Origin: Gekko japonicus
Taxonomy: Eukaryota
Assembly: GCF_001447785.1 (NCBI RefSeq)
Contig: NW_015166428.1
Span: forward strand, 733,280 to 797,279
Length of the DNA: 64,000 nucleotides
Direction of reading: 5' to 3'
Shown: positions 1-61,870 of the stretch, piece by piece
How positions within the stretch are numbered: the stretch's first letter is position 1
Layout of the letters: each line of letters begins with the position of its first letter
The notes under the pieces: model-generated
The model's database searches: none
What the model was told of the DNA's origin: nothing
What the model saw: only the letters and a program-made list of their open reading frames with translations
Program-made: the position numbers and the translations under genes

Positions 1-755
1 TTGCAAGCGCCTACCAGATATAGCTTTTGATAAATAATATATATTCCAAGGGGAAGGGGTCAAAATGAATATTTTCAGTTATCTGAAAGGATTAGTGTTT
101 GATGCTATTCAGATCTTCAGAAAGAAAGAGCTGTATAAGGCTACCTGTGTCCCAGTAGTAACAGCCCTGCTGTTTAAGATCATTGGCTTGTTTTGTAAAA
201 TTTACCTTGTTCTGGATGGTGTGCAACACTCCATCTCCAGGAAGACGGAACATAATTTTCATTTTAAGGAGGAAACCAGATGCAGAAAAATCATTTCCCT
301 TTAAGGAAGTATTCCCCCCTCTTTCCTTTCTCACATTTGCACAAGTACTAGCAGCTAAAGGTCAAATTAGATGTGATGGAGATTGAAGATCCCAGTTAGC
401 CATTTAAAGACAAATTACAGCGGCAGTTTTGGATTGGGCCACGTGGGAGAAATACAGTGGGTTGTGTTTTGGTTTTGCTAATAGAAAATGAGGCAGCTAT
501 TCTGTAGTTAGTGTTTTAAAGGGGAGGGTGGGGGGAAGACAGGCATATGCCTGTCTCTTTCTCTAAGAGGCTGTAACAGTACCGTGAAACCAGTTTTCAT
601 TTGGGAAACAGTGTGGGGAATGCAACCACTAACCACACACCCCATCTTCACATGGCCCTGATCCAACTTTGGAACTGCACACATCTATAATTAATCTTTA
701 AAAGATGCTGGGAAAGTCCAGTCATGACTCTCCCAATATCTCAGCAAACTGAGAG

Positions 756-970
756 AAAAATGCCAGGTGTTAAGGGACTGGTTTATTATCATACAAGGCT
801 CCTACGCGTTTTGCTGTGCAGGCTTCATCAGGGGGATCACAGAATTCACCTAGTGCTGGACCTTTCCACAGCAATTAGGTCCAGCACTAGGTGAATCCTC
901 TGATCCCCCTGACGAAGCCTGCACAGCCAAAAATGTAGGGGCTTTGTATGATAATACACCTGGCATTTTT
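756..970. mobile_element. Inverted-repeat Penelope-like relic with two decayed minimal hammerhead motifs
   Basis: Arms 756-863 and 877-970 are reverse complements; cccc-CTGAYGA-agcctgcacagc-(A)AAA-cgcg-TA-ggrg in each arm. Confidence 0.7.
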
Positions 971-2675
971 TTCCTTTTCGGTGGCACAATTCTGGGTATA
1001 GCCCAATTTTTGTTTCTCCTAATATCTTCCCTGTTTGTGCATTGTTGGTCTTTGTCAAATGCTCGAGATAACGGATTCCTTGAAGGATTGTTTTTTTAAA
1101 GCACTTAAAATATAAGGAAGAACTTGGCAGTAGTAACATGGATCATCCTAGCAAGAATAGAGTGGTGGGTTCTGCTGTTCTGAAATTTTTCTTGTCTTTA
1201 AGCTGTGCAGTTATGAACACCTATAAGTGAATTGGTCTGGGCAGCCAAAATTAGCCGAAGGAGAAATGAGCATTGCTTTGCCTGTTATTTTAAGTAATTA
1301 CAGCATCCTAATCCATCCACAGACCAAGTGTACTGAGTAACTGGTACTGCGGTCCCTGCCAGTGTGTAGCTGATCTGCAACTGTAAAGCTCCACAGATAA
1401 CTAGGGGAAGTCTTCTTTTTTTTAACTTGCCCCTCTGTACAGGCAGCAGCAGGAAATTGTACGAATGAAGTTTATATATATATTTATGTCCGCCACTATG
1501 TTTTCTTCCACGTTGGAAATAAGAGGTCTGTTTCTCTTCTGTTGAAATAAATATCTCCATGCATGTGATGAGCATTCGTTTTCGGTAAGAGGAAATTGCC
1601 TCTACCACAGATAAAAACAGGGTTGCAAGCGTCAATTTGTGGAGTAATCACCTAAAGCTTTAGGCGATTAGTCAGTGGGGTCAATCAGTGGGGGCGTGCA
1701 TGTAAGGCTATACTTAGTTTCTGAGTCTGTTTTTGTCAAGGTACATTTCTGTAATAAGGAAACATGAACCATTGCCTTTCCTTCCAACAACGAATGCAAA
1801 GTTTAGTTTTTACATCGTTTATGATCTCATGCTTTTTGCAGAATTTCAAAATGGCACTAGTACTGGATTCTGGCAATATGAATGTAAATTAGATAAGTGC
1901 AGTTGATTTAAAAGGCAGATAATTAATTAGCTAAACGTTTTTTAATCAGCCCTAGTAAAAAGGTAACCAAAAAGGAAGGAAATAATTTGAAAGTCCAAAC
2001 GTGCTGCAGGTACATTTCTACCCTTGCCAGGCCTCCACAACGCCACCCACCCAAGCACACACCCCCTACCATGGATGCTGGCCCCCTAGGGCCTGGGACT
2101 GCAGTAGGTGGAAACGAGTGGGGGTTTTACTGTGTTGTGGTTTTCAAAATATGTTGTGCTTTCAGGCTTGAAAAGTCTTTAAGAAGCATGCAGGAGAAAG
2201 GGAGGATTATCACACATCCAACAGGCTGCCCTATATGGCCAGCGGGTATTATGTGCCAGCTCTCTCATACTCCTCCCGTTGCAGTCACCACCTCCATGTA
2301 TCCACTGAGTTAGAGCAGTTGCCCACTAAAGCTCTTGCCATAGTGTAGCTCCTAGCCTCTCACACGCTGCCACATATTTTGTCTTCACCACTTTCTGCAG
2401 TGCAGTCTTGTCGAGAGGATGGGACAGATTTTTTAAAAGCTTTTAATAATTGTACATTGCCTTGAGTTCTTTTTAGGCCCCAGAGGTCCAAATTCCTTAT
2501 ATTGAAGATGAAAACCACTGCAACTTGTTTTTGGAGCACAACTGCGGGATGTATTACCGCAAGAGATACAACAAATGCCGTAATTGTATTGTTCACAGTC
2601 TGCCACCACTTCCCCCCATCAGCTCAGATGATTTGAAAAATGAGCTTATGTAAATTAGAAGAAACTGAAAAACTA

Positions 2676-2804
<129 letters not shown>

Positions 2805-9392: not shown

Positions 9393-9699
9393 CTGTTGAA
9401 AGAGCAGAACTGATTTCAGAATGCAGTGCTTCCAAGCATGTTACTACCATGTAATGAATAAAGCCAAGTTTGCCCTTGTAAGTTTTGAAATGGGGAAAGT
9501 GTATGAGAAGGACAGGTGACACGATTACTCTGCACTCCAAAACGTCTCTTCCCTGCAAGCCAGCAATGCTGATTGGGAGAATCATCATCACCATCCATAG
9601 CTTCTGTGTTTCAGAGACTAGGAACGAGCTTGGGATGCAACCACTGGAAGTGGCAAAACTACTGTGCTCTGGTATTGTAAGGATTAGCCAGCCATGTGG

Positions 9700-10930
9700 G
9701 GGGAGGGGAACAACAACAACTGGGGATCAGGCTTCCAGCATTCAATGGGGCGCCATGGGTGCCAACGTCAAGGGTGAAGAGCCTGGGGGTGTTCCTGGAT
9801 GCCTCCATTTCTATGGAGGCCCAGGTCACCGCCATTGCCAGGTCTGCCTTTTTCCATCTGAGGCAAATCAGGCAGTTGGCCCCATATCTCACGCCCTGGG
9901 ACCTGGTTACGGTGACCCATGCAATGGAAGAAGAGAAGAAGAAGAAGCGATTGGATTTATACCCTGCCCTTCACTACCCAAAGGAGTCTCAGAGCAACTT
10001 ACAAACTCCTTCCCCTTCCCCTCCCCACAACAGACACCCTGGGAGGTAGGTGGGGCTGAGAGAGCTCTTGACAGAAACTGTTCTTTTTCAAGGACAGCTC
10101 TTGTCAGAACTACAGCTTGCCCAAGGTCATCCAGCCAGCTGCAAGTGGAGGAGTGGGGAATCAAAACGGGTTCTCCCAGATTAGAGTCCGTGCACTTAAC
10201 CCCTACACCAATGGTCACTTCCAGGCTGGATTATTGTAACTTCCTCTGTGTGGAGCTGCCCTTGAATCTGCTCTGGAAGTTGCAGCCAGTGCAGAATGTG
10301 TGCCTGTGTGGGCTCACATCCACCCAGTACTGCTTGAACTGCACTGACTGCCTATTGAATACCAGATCCGTTTCAAGGTGCTGGTGCTTTCCTTTAAAGC
10401 CCTATGCGGCCAGGGGTCAGCATACTTTCAGGACCTGCCTCTCTCCATATGAGCCCCATAGAGCACTGAGTTCTACAAATCAACACCTTCTGGTAGTCGC
10501 CGGCCCCAGGGATGTCTGACTTGCCTCGGCCATAGGGACATCCCACTTGCTAAAAAGGCCCAGGCCCCTACCTGGTGGAATGAGTTCCCGTATGAGATCA
10601 GGGCCCTGCGGGACTTATTAAATTCTGCAGGCCCTGCAAGACGGGACTCTTCCGCTGGGCTTTTAGTTGAGGCAGCAGACATACTCCCCCCCACCCCAAG
10701 TTGGTCTCCCATCAGTATCCTAGATTTGGACAGCCACTACTTTCCCACCTTAACTGCTGAGACATTTGATTAGATATTGCATGGTATTTTATAACGTTTG
10801 TACTGTTTTAATTTTGTTGTTTTAAATTAGTTATAATTGTTATTGTAAATGGTATTAATATTGATGGAACCTGCCCTGAGCCTGCTTGCGAGGAGGGTGG
10901 GATACAAATCTAATAGAATAAATAAAAATA
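9700..10930 (+). mobile_element. L2-clade LINE 3' fragment interrupted by a Squam3-like SINE (9928-10208, -)
   Basis: VKSLGVFLD..AFFHLRQIRQLAPYL..THAM / VTSRLDYCN RT C-terminus; TSD caatgg around the SINE; gccctgagc..aataaa tail. Confidence 0.85.
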
Positions 10931-20998: not shown

Positions 20999-21168
20999 GG
21001 CTAAACTAATAATTTAATATTAGATTATCCTCTTTCCCGCTAACACAGATGCATGTTCCTCCATCCAAATTATTTCCCATGGCATGGATCGTGATAGTTG
21101 TGTTTTGGAAGAACACAGCTATTGTTTCTCGACAAAGATTTGTATTCTCTTATCGAAACAATACTCAC

Positions 21169-21264
21169 CTCCTCTTACCACTCCATTTGTACATATGGCA
21201 GACATGGAGATACCTGTTAAAGTTGTAACTACCACACTCAGGCAAATAACTACGACTCCAAGAC
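21169..21264 (-). CDS. SLC12A1: NKCC2 alternative cassette exon, F type (96 nt, TM2/ICL1)
   Basis: ttccag|GTCTTGGAG..GGAG|gtgagt; GLGVVVICLSVVVTTLTGISMSAICTNGVVRG matches the recalled F variant. Confidence 0.93.
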
Positions 21265-21834
21265 CTGGAAAAAATCCCAAAAAAGATGTTTGACCCAAAT
21301 ACCTTGGTCGGATCATTTTGTGCTAAAATCCTGCTAGTAAGAAGCCACCATCATGGATCGAGAAAGGTCTGACTGGATCTGTAAATACATGTGATGCACT
21401 AAGTTGTCAAGATAAAGAAAATACCAGTAAGGTACTGGACACCGGTCCTGAATCCCAGAATGACTTGCCCCACGTCTTCAGAAGACTCTGCAATCAAAGT
21501 ATTCTACAGATAAAAATTACGAGAGTCATGTTCATTAGCCCTTAAATGTTTAAGAACAGGCAGTCCGGACCATCCATGGAAACGCAACCTGCAATGTTCT
21601 GAATAAGAAGGGTATTTTTTTAATTAAAGAGGAAAAGAACACAAGAATCTCCAAGAAAAACTGATTCAAATCCTCCGTCAGTCCCAGATAGGGTTATCCG
21701 CACTTCGTGAACTGAGCTGAACTTTGTGATTCACAGGAAGGTTAAGGATCAAAATAGAGGTCATGACTACCGTTGACTGTATGGCTTACCTTTTAATTCC
21801 CTGCAGGTCTAATGTCCATTGTGTTATTACTTTA

Positions 21835-22104
<270 letters not shown>

Positions 22105-45729: not shown

Positions 45730-45930
45730 GGACATATGAACATATGAAGCTGCCTTATACTGAATCAGACCATTCAGCCATCAGAGTCAGTATTGTCTAC
45801 TCAGACTGGTCTCAGGCAGAAGTCTTTCCCATCACCTATTGCCGGATCTTATAACTGGAGATGCCGGGGATTGAACTTGGGACCTTCTGCGTGCCAAGCA
45901 GATGCTCTACCACTGAGCCACAGCCCCTCT
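45730..45930 (-). mobile_element. tRNA-headed SINE with CR1-like tail; second copy at about 47745-47960
   Basis: gggattgaacttgggaccttc..ctctaccactgagccacagcccc head; gaagctgccttatactgaatcagacc tail. Confidence 0.7.
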
Positions 45931-47230: not shown

Positions 47231-48399
47231 TTAAAGTTGCTATTACAGATCTTATTTATCATTTCTCACTGGCCTGATCCAGCATCGGTCTCTCCCCCAC
47301 ATAATCAAATGAGTGACATAATTTTGCTGCAGTAAATAATCCGGTCATGTTTGCCATTTAAACAAAAAAAATTATGTATGTGTATCCAGCTTCCCATAAT
47401 GTAATTGAATTAGGGTGATGATATGGGCATGTTCCAATGACAGCTGCACAGCCACAGTCAACACTGCAACAGATGCACCGTGACAGACCATTTTGCCGGG
47501 ATAATGCAATATTCCAGCAACTGAAAATGCTGCCTTAAGCAAAGATGGCCAGGTTTCCAGCAACAAATGAGCTCCTGAATGGCTCAAAGAGGTTGTTACT
47601 TCTCTCATGCAGAAGAGTTCTGATTCCACCCCCCACCTTCCAACATTAACAAAATTCTGAGCAGGGAGAGGTAATACAGTGCAGGTTTGAGTGTGGACTC
47701 TTGAAGAGCAGACCTTCAAAGAAACTTCTGCAAGGATGTTGCTGGAACACATGAAGCCGCCTTATACTGAATCAGACCACCAGTGCACCAAAGTCAGTAC
47801 TGTCTACTCAAACCAGCAACTCTCAGACTCCAGGGTCTCAGATTTGGTGATCTTTCACATCACCAAATGCCTGGTGCTTTTTAACTGGAGATGCCGGGGA
47901 CTGAACCTGGGACCTTCTGCATGCAAAATAGATGCTCTACCACCAAGCCATGGCCCCCTCCCCCACCTGCCTCTTCTTTCCCTGTTTCCTTTGATTTTCA
48001 AGTAGAGAAGGTTGCGTTCCTCCCAACAACCTAAAAACCTCGCCTTGCCCATCTACTTATTCCAGCCTACTGAGATCTCAGAAGGCTTGGACTGGAGCAA
48101 CTCTGGATTAGGATTGCAGTGTAAATTCTGCAGGGAGCCACTGTTCTCTGTTGGCAGGTGGGAGGTGTATGCGGAGCATGCACTTGCTCCACGGGAGGGC
48201 CTTCCAAATGCAGGTAGAGAGTTTGTGCCCCTGACCAACAGAACACAGGAAACCGTGTGGCCATTCCCCCGAGGCACCTGCCAAGCAGCGGTATCACAAG
48301 GAAGCCAGTGGCTGACCTTCCCGGGCATCCCTCGCTCACCAAAGGCTGCAATCCTGCCGCGCTGGCATCAGCTGGGCTCCCTTCCTGGACAGGCAAGGC

Positions 48400-49530
48400 A
48401 ACAAGCAGCCGCCTCTTTACCAAAAGGCTCCCGGGGCAACGTGGCGCCGTGCAAGGAAACCAAGGCGCCCTCCCGAGGTCTGCCGCTCGCGGGCGGCCTC
48501 CTTACCTGCTCATCCTGCGGGCGGCCACACGCGCCACCANNNNNNNNNNNNNNNNNNNNNNNNNNNNNNNNNNNNNNNNNNNNNNNNNNNNNNNNNNNNN
48601 NNNNNNNNNNNNNNNNNNNNNNNNNNNNNNNNNNNNNNNNNNNNNNNNNNNNNNNNNNNNNNNNNNNNNNNNNNNNNNNNNNNNNNNNNNNNNNNNNNNN
48701 NNNNNNNNNNNNNNNNNNNNNNNNNNNNNNNNNNNNNNNNNNNNNNNNNNNNNNNNNNNNNNNNNNNNNNNNNNNNNNNNNNNNNNNNNNNNNNNNNNNN
48801 NNNNNNNNNNNNNNNNNNNNNNNNNNNNNNNNNNNNNNNNNNNNNNNNNNNNNNNNNNNNNNNNNNNNNNNNNNNNNNNNNNNNNNNNNNNNNNNNNNNN
48901 NNNNNNNNNNNNNNNNNNNNNNNNNNNNNNNNNNNNNNNNNNNNNNNNNNNNNNNNNNNCGGCTGGGTCGTTGTCCGGCCGCCAAAGGCTCCTCCCCGCC
49001 CCACCCCTCCCCAGTTGCTCCGGTGACTCCGGAGGGCGCGTGGAGGCGCCCTGCAAGGAAGGCGACGTGCGGGGCATTCGTCCGCAAGGCTCCCGCGCTC
49101 TCCCACCCCGCTGCAGGCGCCGCCTGGCTCGGGAGCTGCCGCCTTCCCCGTGGTTCTGGGGGAGCGGCACAGGCTCCCCCCCGGGAAGCGGGCACTGAGC
49201 AGCATCGTGCTTGCCGGGAAGCGCGGCGGCGGCGGCGACGGGCTTCCCCACACCTCTCAAGTTGGCTGCCCCCAAAGAGAGCCGAGCGGCCAAGGGGGGC
49301 TGGGGGGGCGCACGTTTTGTGCCGCGGTTGCGTGTCTGTTCGGCGGCGCGCATTCGAGACAAAGCCGCAGCAGGTTGCAAGCAGCAATTGCGGGGCTCCG
49401 CCTGCAAGACTCGCAAATGTTTTCGGCGCAAAGCTGAATCCCTCCCTTCGCCCACTCACGGTGAGAGGCCAGAGGATGGGCCCTGGTCTGCCTACGGCGC
49501 AAGACCGACGCTGGGTTCACCGCCGCCCCG
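48400..49530 (-). promoter_or_regulatory. CTXN2: CpG island, probable CTXN2 promoter and non-coding first exon
   Basis: GC/CpG-rich on both sides of a gap; minus-strand donor GCAG|gtaagg at 48506/48505. Confidence 0.7.
48540..48959. other. Assembly gap inside the CTXN2 CpG island
   Basis: N run. Confidence 1.
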
Positions 49531-50011
49531 CACCAGGCTTATTGTCTTGCGAATGCCACCCAAAAAACCAGCCCCCCCCCCCCATTAAGTTCAACAGGAT
49601 ATGGGTTGCGCCCCTTGAGTCTTTACCTTGCAAAAAAGTCTCCTTCCTTCCTGCCAGGAATTTTGTGAGAACAATAGTGGCGTTTCCAGAATCCATGCCA
49701 GGTTCCCGAACCTACGCGGTTGATGGCAAGTAAAGTGAGGCTGCGTTTGACCTTAGAGTATAAACGCCTCTCATTATTTTATCTCCTGGGGTGAAGGACA
49801 GTTTGTAGCCAAGTGGCAAGTGAAACTCTCTATATCAAGCAGCACATAACTGGTCGTTTAATGGTCAGGGGCCCAGGTACCTTCCCACCGCCTCTCCCAG
49901 TATGCCCCTGGAAGAGCAGTACGCCTAGGGAATAAGAACCTCATGGTGGTCCCCGGCTGTCCCCAACCAGAGAACTCTCTGCAGGAACTGGCATCTGTGC
50001 CCTGTGCCATG

Positions 50012-59897: not shown

Positions 59898-60922
59898 TGG
59901 ATAGCCGTGTTAGCCTGTCTGTTGCAGTGGAAAAGAGTAAGAGTCCAGGAGCAGGGAGGAGCTTCCGTGAATCACTGCTCCCTTTTTCAGATCTGAAAAG
60001 AGCAAGAGTCCAGGAGCACCTTCAAGACTAACTAAATCTGTGGCAGAGTAGGGAGCTTCTGTAAGTCACGGCTCACTTCATAGAATCACGGAGTTGGAAG
60101 GGGCCATACAGACCATCTAGTCAAATTCCCTGCCCAATGCAGGACCAGCCTAAATCATCTCTGACAAATATTTGTCCAGTCTCTTCTTGAAAGCTGTCAG
60201 TGAACGGGAGCTAACCACCTCCCTAGGCAGCTGATTCCACCTTTGAACTACTCTGACCGTGAAAAAGTTTTTCCTAATGTCCAGGTGATACCTTTCTGCA
60301 TGTAATTTAAACCTGTTGCTTTGGGTCCTATCCTCTGCAGCCAACTGGAACAGCTCCTTGCCCTCCTCCAAATGACAGCCTTTCAAATATTTAAAGAGAC
60401 CAATCATGTACCTCCTCAAACTAAACATTCCCAAGGCCCCCTTAGCCTTTCCTCGTAGGGCTCAGTCTCCAGACCCCTGATCATCCTTGTTGCTCTCTTC
60501 TGCACCCTCTCGATTTTGTCCACATCCTTTTTGAAGGATTCTTCAGATCTGCAAAGAGCAAGAGTCCCCGAGCGCCTTAAAAGCCTAACCAAATCCGTGA
60601 CAGGGTAGGAGCTTCCATGAGTCACTGGTCACTTCTTCAGATCTGCAAAGAGCAAGAGTCCCCGAGCGCCTTAAAAGCCTAACCAAATTCGTGACAGGGT
60701 AGGAGCTTCCATGAGTCACTGGTCACTTCTTCAGATCTGCAAAGAGCAAGGGTCTGGTAGCACCTTAAAGACTAACCAAATTCGTGGCAGGGTAGGAGCT
60801 TCTGTGAGTCACTGGTCACTTCAGACGGAAGTGAGCAGTAACTCAGGAAAACTCCTACCCTGCCACAGATTTTATAAGTCTTTAAGGGGCTACCGGACTC
60901 TTGCTCTTTTCCACTGCAACAG
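59898..60922. repeat. Tandem array of about 94-bp Penelope-like units with a terminal inverted unit, interrupted by CR1
   Basis: ttcttcagatctgcaaagagcaag at 60539, 60633 and 60727; related units at 59898-60079; inverted unit at about 60828-60922. Confidence 0.82.
60080..60538 (-). mobile_element. CR1 LINE 3' fragment
   Basis: FKKDVDKIERVQKRATRMIRGLE..YEERL / GMFSL..FKYLKGCH..IRKNFFTVRVVQRWNQLP; attctat tail. Confidence 0.92.
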
Positions 60923-60949
60923 AGCTCTGTTATATCTCCAAGGCTGCCA

Positions 60950-61870
60950 TTTCCATCGTGTTGTTCATCCGCGCCCCTTACAAGCATGGCGTATTAATCC
61001 GATGGACTGGCTTCACCGGCCGGGAGCCTTCCGGCCCCTTCCCTTCTCCACCTCCCAGGGACCGGCGAGGGAAACAAACACCGGCGCTCAACAGGCCCAG
61101 GCCTCGAGACAACTCGTCGCCATGGCAACGGGAGCCGTTTCCTCCGCGACGGCCGGGGGAAACCCCGTTCCCCGCCGCCACTTCTCGCGAGAGTCTGACG
61201 GGAGGCCGGCGCGGAGCACAGAGGCCGAGGCGCTGGCGGAGGGCCCTTTTCAAAACCCGGCGAGAGGAAATGGCGGAGAACGACAAGTTCGAGGCCGCGG
61301 CGCCGTTGGGGGAAGGCGAGGAGGCCGCGGCGGCGGGGGCCTCGGCGGGCGCCACCGACAACAACCACGAGCAGCCGCCGTCGCAGGAGGAGAGGCGGGC
61401 GGCGGAGCAGCAGCAGCAGCGGCGACGGCGGCCATGCCGGAGAGCGGTGACGGCAGCGCCAATGGCGTCAAAATGTGTGTGCGCGAAGGGGGCGTGGGTG
61501 GGCAGGCAGGGCCCGGTACCCGAGCGCCGGGATGCGGGGGGCTGCGCAGGCCGCGGGCTGGGCGGAGTGTGGAGAAGAAGGAGCGTCCATTCGCCGGGCG
61601 CGGGGATCTCTCTCTCCCCCCCTGTCAAAACTCCACACAGGGAGGCTGGTGAGGATCGCTCTGAAGAGACCAGCCGGTTTACTGGCGGTCATCATTACGG
61701 GCAAGGTTAACCGTTGAAATGATAAGCATTATCGTCGTTAGTAGTCAGAGGGGACAATAGAGAGAGCCTTCTTGTGGCGCACCGCTTCAGTCGATTATCG
61801 CCCGGTTACTGTCGCTGATAATGATGCGTTGCTACTGTTGATGGCCGTGCTTACCGTCGTGAGCGGTAAA
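60950..61870 (+). promoter_or_regulatory. MYEF2: MYEF2 CpG-island promoter with RFX X-box-like GTCGCCATGGCAAC (61116-61129) and TCTCGCGAGA BANP/ZBTB33 motif (61183-61192)
   Basis: High CpG density; motifs read directly. Confidence 0.8.
61270..61474 (+). CDS. MYEF2: Myelin expression factor 2 exon 1 (apparent 1-nt frameshift in this sequence)
   Basis: Starts MAENDK (human MADANK) and ends ..GSANGVK(M) AAAAT|gtgtgt (human SSNGVKM), but the two motifs are in different frames; synteny supports the call. Confidence 0.82.

What the first reader, a model, noticed from the sequence alone, without database searches (positions are those of the whole stretch)
756..970. Inverted pair of minimal type-I hammerhead ribozyme motifs in SLC12A1 intron 14
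Seen: an inverted repeat with arms of about 95 bp and a 13-nt loop. The minus strand (799-835, sense to NKCC2 pre-mRNA) reads cccc CTGATGA agcctgcacagc AAAA cgcg TA ggag. The plus strand (905-941) reads cccc CTGACGA agcctgcacagcc AAAA atg TA gggg. Known: Penelope-like retroelements carry minimal type-I hammerheads (stem I-CUGANGA-stem II-GAAA-palindromic mini stem III-UH) that cleave as dimers, and they often leave inverted termini. Inference: this is a separate Penelope-like or retrozyme-like family with ancestral core ccccCUGAUGAagcc..gcGAAAcgcgUAgggg. Both copies lost G12, consistent with CpG decay, so they are probably inactive here.
Basis: partly seen in the sequence, partly recalled or inferred. 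Interest (0 to 1): 0.7.

Follow-up and report, generated by a model that had tools for sequence, protein, structure and literature searches.

The report
Spliced Penelope stub, dead hammerheads
This hairpin in a kidney salt-transporter intron is an old, intron-less stub of a Penelope-type jumping gene whose two tiny ribozyme motifs are broken and predicted to be locked shut; it is likely inert, but its family suggests that such stubs are copied from the front end of the element's own spliced message.

Summary
Observation confirmed, with corrections. The insertion spans 742-1014, not 756-970. It has a 13-bp target-site duplication (TSD) and two head-to-head arms, each with a minimal type-I hammerhead; only the right arm has the ~35-nt tail. 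Longer copies carry a decayed Neptune-type RT + GIY-YIG frame, then a ~215-nt GT-AG intron, then the hammerhead, so this is a Penelope-like element (PLE), not a MITE or retrozyme. GAAA is ancestral (CG 35, CA 36, TG 30 of 109 arms). Left-arm G12>A is CpG decay; right-arm G12>C is a recent transversion (a relative's ortholog keeps G). Each strand holds one ribozyme, predicted paired to its antisense arm. Intron-less copies stop within 65 nt upstream of the junction (29 of 29); intron-bearing ones run into the ORF (7 of 9). A younger family here repeats the pattern, with one long exception. Likely mechanism: reverse transcription starts inside the spliced mRNA's 5' leader, twice, into one staggered cut. 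This argues against the published antisense-template idea. The scan reached this reading earlier on other genomes (e1-9506236, e1-10287404).

The parts
729..741 (+). Left copy of the 13-bp target-site duplication
   Evidence: 12 of 13 identical to 1015-1027
742..876 (-). Left arm: intron-less pLTR copy without the tail; about 44 nt of first exon, splice junction, hammerhead, about 100 nt of 3' part
   Evidence: nhmmer hit of the family model at 837-734; extents; relatives restore family letters at 750, 751, 753
799..835 (-). Left minimal type-I hammerhead, sense to the host pre-mRNA; G12>A at 812, one stem II and one stem I mismatch; stem III palindrome intact
837..838 (-). Exon-exon junction of the left arm (intron absent)
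   Evidence: matches the GT..AG boundaries of intron-bearing copies
864..877 (-). Unpaired 'loop': extra first-exon sequence of the left arm; head-to-head junction at about 877 with 1 nt of possible microhomology
   Evidence: read from the sequence
877..1014 (+). Right arm: intron-less pLTR copy with the tail; about 26 nt of first exon
   Evidence: nhmmer hit 903-1020; extents
902..903 (+). Exon-exon junction of the right arm (intron absent)
905..941 (+). Right minimal hammerhead, antisense to the host pre-mRNA; G12>C at 928, stem III palindrome lost
   Evidence: G at 928 in the ortholog of organism C
981..1019 (+). About 35-nt PLE 'tail', on this arm only; its last 5 nt overlap the right TSD copy
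   Evidence: bimodal 3' ends of the family, about 100 and about 136
1015..1027 (+). Right copy of the target-site duplication
2678..2779 (-). Host exon upstream of the intron (13th coding exon of the SLC12A1-like gene)

Best explanation
This is a 273-bp, intron-less, head-to-head insertion of a Neptune-type Penelope-like retroelement, likely made when the element's enzyme copied the front end of its own spliced mRNA twice into one staggered DNA cut, and it is predicted to be an inert passenger whose ribozymes do not cut. Shown: family membership, TSD, one-sided tail, exact intron loss in both arms, short 5' reach of intron-less copies, broken cores, presence at the same site in two relatives. 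Inferred: a promoter in the pLTR starts the RNA about 55-62 nt before the donor; the cap-proximal intron is spliced; the GIY-YIG nuclease nicks both strands about 13 nt apart; RT starts at the two internal sites that bound the tail, one on each nick, runs to or near the cap, and the two cDNAs are joined at their 3' ends. Long copies come from RNA in which the downstream pLTR intron stays unspliced. In the host pre-mRNA the single sense hammerhead is predicted to be paired to its antisense twin in an ~85-bp hairpin and is removed with the host intron.
For: PLE identity: tblastn of an intact 763-aa RT + GIY-YIG ORF from this genome (Pfam RVT_1 and GIY-YIG over cut-off or E 3e-6 or better) hits all 9 family loci tested (best E 9e-26, L114) and L167 (E 2e-35), upstream of the hammerhead on its strand. 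Intron: 27 copies with both ends, 203-231 nt, GT in 23, AG in 25. Splice state and length: among loci chosen only by junction pattern, 1 of 30 'spliced' against 6 of 8 intron-bearing reach over 100 nt upstream (Fisher p 7e-5); the one exception, L145, has the intron with a mutated donor, giving 0 of 29 against 7 of 9; none of 69 arms called spliced exceeds 65 nt. A TATA-like run lies about 84 nt before the donor (by eye). TSD of 11 or more matching letters in 17 of 32 arm pairs against 1 of 990 mismatched flank pairs; exactly one tailed arm at 30 of 31 loci. Arms of one locus are closer than arms of different loci (0.12 against 0.16, 0 of 5000 permutations) but do not share CpG states (p 0.13), so they were alike at insertion and decayed apart. 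A younger family repeats it: a full-length copy has intron + hammerhead upstream of ORF1; 10 of 30 copies lack intron 2, 6 of them lack both introns and begin 56-62 nt before donor 1 (four at 61-62), and one spliced pair is a clean palindrome with a ~15-bp TSD. Published support: both-strand nicking, two internal RT starts bounding the tail, and hammerhead cleavage not needed for insertion in the anole PLE (PMC11167929); D. virilis intron 46 nt after the start site (PMC2377424).
Against: L191 of the young family lacks intron 2 yet runs 530 nt upstream and keeps intron 1, so the rule is not absolute. No copy of the window's own family was found with the 5' pLTR joined to ORF1; that layout is seen only in sister subfamilies (L174) and the young family (L111). 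No start site was mapped and no RNA of this family was shown spliced. No empty site was seen, as the relatives carry the insertion. 15 of 32 pairs lack a clear TSD in the search window. Only 30 of 40 junction matches were fetched, and at least one arm (L018+) was mis-sorted by the regex. Short copies could also come from a separate intron-less master (rival 1).
Confidence: 0.8

Rival explanations
1. The short intron-less copies are a SINE-like non-autonomous subfamily: one spliced retrocopy became a master that was transcribed and spread in trans by the PLE enzyme.
For: Intron-less arms are common (69 of 109 sampled; 40 junction against 8 donor pattern matches), and L191 shows that intron loss can sit in a longer copy.
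Against: Both sequence variants at the diagnostic site occur in spliced and unspliced form (spliced A 34, G 31; unspliced A 26, G 9), and an unrelated family shows the same forms. That needs several independent masters, each a spliced cDNA anyway.
Confidence: 0.12
2. The palindrome arose by self-priming fold-back of one cDNA or of an antisense transcript (model of PMC3846280) rather than by two primings.
For: The two arms of a locus are more alike than random pairs; head-to-head palindromic junctions are the argument in PMC3846280; L202/L203 is a perfect palindrome.
Against: An antisense RNA cannot lose a sense GT-AG intron. The two outer ends differ by the tail at 30 of 31 loci and in both directions relative to the longer 5' arm, which fits two RT start sites. 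Fold-back of a sense cDNA is not excluded and remains a live variant of the inferred step.
Confidence: 0.25
3. The hairpin has been kept for a host role, such as a double-stranded RNA that is edited or affects NKCC2 splicing.
For: Present at the orthologous site in organisms A, B and C; about 85 bp of predicted duplex.
Against: Differences from relatives fall inside the element as in the flanks; it lies 1.1-1.7 kb from both splice sites; the arms decayed independently.
Confidence: 0.05
4. It is a DNA-transposon MITE or a microRNA precursor.
For: Long terminal inverted repeats; Rfam miRNA models score the hairpin (best E 9e-12).
Against: All Rfam hits lie far under the gathering scores (54.9 against 330; none); TSDs are long and variable; the arms are unequal; the family is joined to RT + GIY-YIG and has lost an intron.
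Confidence: 0.01

Closest known systems
Inverted-pLTR insertions of EN+ Penelope-like elements (Pen2a_Av, PMC3846280; scheme in PMC8557442)
   Same: Head-to-head pLTR copies, TSD, 30-40-nt tail on one end only, 5' truncation.
   Different: No ORF between the arms; both arms are precisely intron-less, whereas PLEs are described as keeping introns.
Minimal type-I hammerheads of metazoan PLEs (PMC4209133)
   Same: Core boxes, extra nucleotide between 9 and 10.1, G10.1-C11.1 pair, palindromic mini stem III, intron end next to helix I as in D. virilis; opposite-strand pairs 100-700 bp apart are mentioned there.
   Different: Stem II of only 3 bp; this copy has lost G12 in both arms; the spliced form exists as genomic DNA.
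PAc / Poseidon_Ac of Anolis (PMC11167929)
   Same: Two 3' ends about 35 nt apart; hammerhead in the pLTR; both-strand cutting would give two-armed inserts.
   Different: This family has the CxxC linker that Penelope/Poseidon lack (PMC8557442) and an upstream ORF1, so it is Neptune-like.
Non-LTR retrozymes (bioRxiv 10.64898/2026.07.22.740005)
   Same: Non-coding, hammerhead-bearing, pLTR-derived.
   Different: Retrozymes are tandem same-strand arrays; this is an inverted pair with a TSD.

Membership tests
EN+ Penelope-like element | RT followed by a C-terminal GIY-YIG endonuclease in the parent element | tested here: met
   tblastn to an intact ORF of the same genome. Direct Pfam scans of 7 short decayed fragments found no RT or GIY-YIG.
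EN+ Penelope-like element | Direct or inverted pLTRs with a 30-40-nt tail on one end | tested here: met
   one tailed arm at 30 of 31 loci
EN+ Penelope-like element | Target-site duplication of variable sequence | tested here: met
   17 of 32 pairs against 1 of 990 controls; 12 of 13 here
EN+ Penelope-like element | Spliceosomal intron in the pLTR, retained in long copies | tested here: met
   27 copies, GT 23, AG 25; absent from this copy
Neptune clade | Cys-rich CxxC linker between RT and endonuclease | tested here: met
   CGHCKRC in L116 and CGHCKCC in L112; feature from PMC8557442; Nematis shares it
Neptune clade | Placement in an RT phylogeny | not tested
   no named reference PLE proteins were held
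Minimal type-I hammerhead (family ancestor) | CUGANGA, GAAA, UH core with stems I and II and a palindromic stem III | tested here: met
   majority or CpG-reconstructed state at every core site; 29 of 109 arms keep the core, 9 keep core and all tested pairs
Minimal type-I hammerhead (this copy) | G12 present | tested here: not met
   A at 812 (minus strand), C at 928
Minimal type-I hammerhead | Stem covariation | tested here: inconclusive
   within the family changes look like neutral decay; a sister subfamily keeps core and stems with another loop 2 (L176); no covariance model was built
Minimal type-I hammerhead | Self-cleavage as a dimer | not testable with these tools
   needs in vitro assay
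Non-LTR retrozyme | Two or more same-strand hammerhead units in tandem | tested here: not met
   one motif per strand; no tandem array at the locus
MITE | Equal terminal inverted repeats and a short fixed TSD | tested here: not met
   unequal arms, variable 12-16-nt TSDs

The most novel reading that the evidence does not exclude
Penelope RT starts inside the 5' leader of the element's own capped, spliced sense mRNA, and two such RNAs, held together by a protein dimer and perhaps by the hammerhead's self-complementary stem III, prime the two strands of one staggered cut. This would explain head-to-head inversions, the one-sided tail and intron retention at once: only the cap-proximal intron is spliced, so any full-length copy must come from an unspliced downstream pLTR. 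No antisense template is needed.
Probability: 0.45. Interest if true: 0.65.

Novelty: new variant of a known kind. Interest (0 to 1): 0.38.

Why it matters
The locus itself is very likely inert. The family pattern bears on an open question: why PLEs keep introns and form head-to-head ends (PMC8557442 calls the significance of intron retention unknown; PMC3846280 proposes antisense templates). Precisely spliced inverted stubs show that sense, spliced RNA is a template, and they map the likely start site and both RT start sites from DNA alone. A young intact family in the same genome offers a system in which to test this.

Tried and rejected
Rfam: no hammerhead model matched 500-1300 at E up to 10, only sub-threshold hairpin hits; only two tRNA-like hits in the window at gathering score. 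Pfam did not recognise the decayed ORF fragments or five long window ORFs. One Pfam accession was not in the library. One search printed hammerhead labels shifted by one position; one search has the corrected counts. Sequencing runs: no RNA holder listed. Two RNA runs gave 14 and 5 reads, none 99% alike and nearly all running on into other sequence, so they are sister copies and say nothing about this locus. No empty allele was seen in four runs. The ortholog of organism B did not pass the 91% cut, so its G12 state is unknown. A search for the family's 5' pLTR joined to ORF1 found only sister subfamilies. Unconstrained folding of either arm alone did not give a hammerhead fold. The look-up of earlier findings by sequence was blank. 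Rejected: MITE, miRNA, retrozyme, working dimeric ribozyme at this locus.

Full report
Observation. The inverted repeat is there: 780-863/877-960, 88% complementary over 84 nt, with a further pair at 753-770/956-973; the RNA folds 18 SD better than shuffles. Both motifs read as quoted. The host gene is an SLC12 transporter on the minus strand; I count 13 coding exons upstream, one of them a duplicated cassette. SLC12A1 and 'intron 14' rest on recalled features of NKCC2, since the best PDB hit is SLC12A2.

Family. A DNA search gave 82 matches from 40 scored of 286 candidates, a lower bound. A profile of the element end found 125 distinct arms in the loci fetched up to then, 109 covering the hammerhead. 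Five CpG sites show the usual two-way decay; at C11.1-G12 the counts are CA 36, CG 35, TG 30. The ancestor therefore had an intact core: CUGACGA, an extra A, a 3-bp stem II, GAAA, the palindrome of stem III, a GUA cleavage triplet and a C/G stem I. This is the metazoan minimal type-I design (PMC4209133, parts 1-2 of 4 read). 29 of 109 arms keep the core and 9 keep core plus pairs; among 69 arms found without using the motif, 12 and 1. Non-CpG core sites differ at 5.1% against 6.9% elsewhere, which is no clear sign of selection after insertion.

Parent element. Searching with a longer copy led to loci with decayed frames for RT, thumb, a CxxC linker and GIY-YIG upstream of the hammerhead on its strand. 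All 9 loci tested match an intact 763-aa RT + GIY-YIG ORF of this genome; L167 adds E 2e-35. L086 has an inverted 3' copy at its front, the usual PLE layout. The linker points to Neptune rather than Penelope/Poseidon (PMC8557442, passages); no tree was built.

Anatomy of this insertion. It runs from 742 to 1014 between 13-bp direct repeats, 12 of 13 identical. Across the family 17 of 32 inverted arm pairs have such repeats against 1 of 990 mismatched controls, and at 30 of 31 loci one arm is about 35 nt longer at its outer end (the last count read off the table). This is the known inverted pLTR + tail + TSD structure (PMC3846280, passages and Discussion). The '13-nt loop' is simply the part of the first exon that only the left arm has.

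Intron loss. Long copies carry an AT-rich insert of 203-231 nt just before stem I, starting GT in 23 and ending AG in 25 of 27 copies with both ends; 11 further arms had no donor in range. Both window arms join the flanking exons exactly. Among loci picked by junction pattern alone, 1 of 30 intron-less and 6 of 8 intron-bearing copies reach more than 100 nt upstream (p 7e-5); the exception proved to hold the intron with a mutated donor. None of 69 arms called spliced passes 65 nt. A TATA-like run sits about 84 nt before the donor (by eye), and the D. virilis intron lies 46 nt after the start site (PMC2377424, passages).

Replication in a second family. A young family with identical ORFs at three loci has 35 exact matches to its hammerhead. 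Its full-length copy L111 has intron and hammerhead upstream of ORF1 and again after the ORF. Of 30 copies fetched, 10 lack intron 2; six lack both introns and begin 56-62 nt before donor 1, four at 61-62; L202/L203 form a spliced palindrome with a ~15-bp TSD; L211 is uninformative; L191 lacks intron 2, keeps intron 1 and runs 530 nt upstream, against the simple rule.

Mechanism. In the anole PLE the protein nicks both strands, RT starts at two internal sites that bound the tail, and hammerhead mutants still insert (PMC11167929, parts 1-2 of 4 read). I infer that the pLTR promoter makes a capped RNA whose first intron is spliced, that RT starts at these sites within the leader and runs to the cap, and that this happens once on each strand of a cut staggered by about 13 nt. 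Arms of one locus are more alike than arms of different loci but do not share CpG states (18 pairs), so they were alike at insertion and have not been homogenised. Fold-back of one sense cDNA is not excluded. An antisense template, proposed in PMC3846280, cannot give precise loss of a sense intron.

Activity here. Each strand has one hammerhead, so no same-strand dimer can form in cis, and the motif is predicted to be paired to the other arm. The sense motif has G12>A and mismatches in stems I and II. The antisense motif has G12>C and has lost the stem III palindrome. The insertion is shared with organisms B and C, and the orthologous contig of C, identified by equal length and depth, keeps G at 928, so that loss is recent and not CpG deamination.

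Novelty. Every structural element is known. I found no paper describing precisely spliced genomic pLTR stubs in five searches. The library lacks most subscription papers; the 2003 and 2005 PLE intron papers cited in PMC2377424 were not seen, and no supplements were read, so such copies may be in print. The retrozyme preprint (part 1 of 5 and passages) deals with tandem arrays. Two earlier notes of this scan on other genomes state the same reading; I had noted mine before, and they are not independent support.

Verdict. An old, very likely inert PLE stub; interest 0.38, carried by the family-level clue to PLE copying rather than by this locus.

Noticed in passing
L109/L110/L111 (G000:C3894, C4962, C7827); L186-L215: A young Neptune-like family with identical 763-aa RT + GIY-YIG frames and an intact ORF1, two leader introns (104 and 92 nt, GT-AG) and a hammerhead with the U3-A8 core variant right behind the acceptor; likely recently active and a good test system.
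   Followed up: partly
L191 (G000:C3471:59294): Long copy lacking leader intron 2 but keeping intron 1: a partly spliced template or an intron-less lineage.
   Followed up: partly
L053 (G000:C16780:473964) and L087: Same-strand tandem units of the window's family (335 nt apart in L053), the only arrangement that could form a cis dimer; cores are damaged.
   Followed up: no
L014 (G000:C9470:821905): The two arms are identical at all 61 non-CpG and 5 CpG sites compared, which suggests gene conversion or a recent fold-back.
   Followed up: no
L038/L114 (G000:C2892:22829): A long family copy with decayed RT ends directly against a C2H2 zinc-finger coding stretch.
   Followed up: no
window 21161-21268 and 21931-22032 (-): Two related cassette exons (62% identical) of the transporter; a third, recalled for mammals, was not found by tblastn.
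   Followed up: partly
window 45856-45927 and 47886-47957 (-): Two tRNA-like matches (56.6 and 29.5 bits); tRNA gene or SINE heads.
   Followed up: no
window 48006-49733, 60675-61652, 9482-10519: Long stop-free frames with no Pfam match; not examined further.
   Followed up: no
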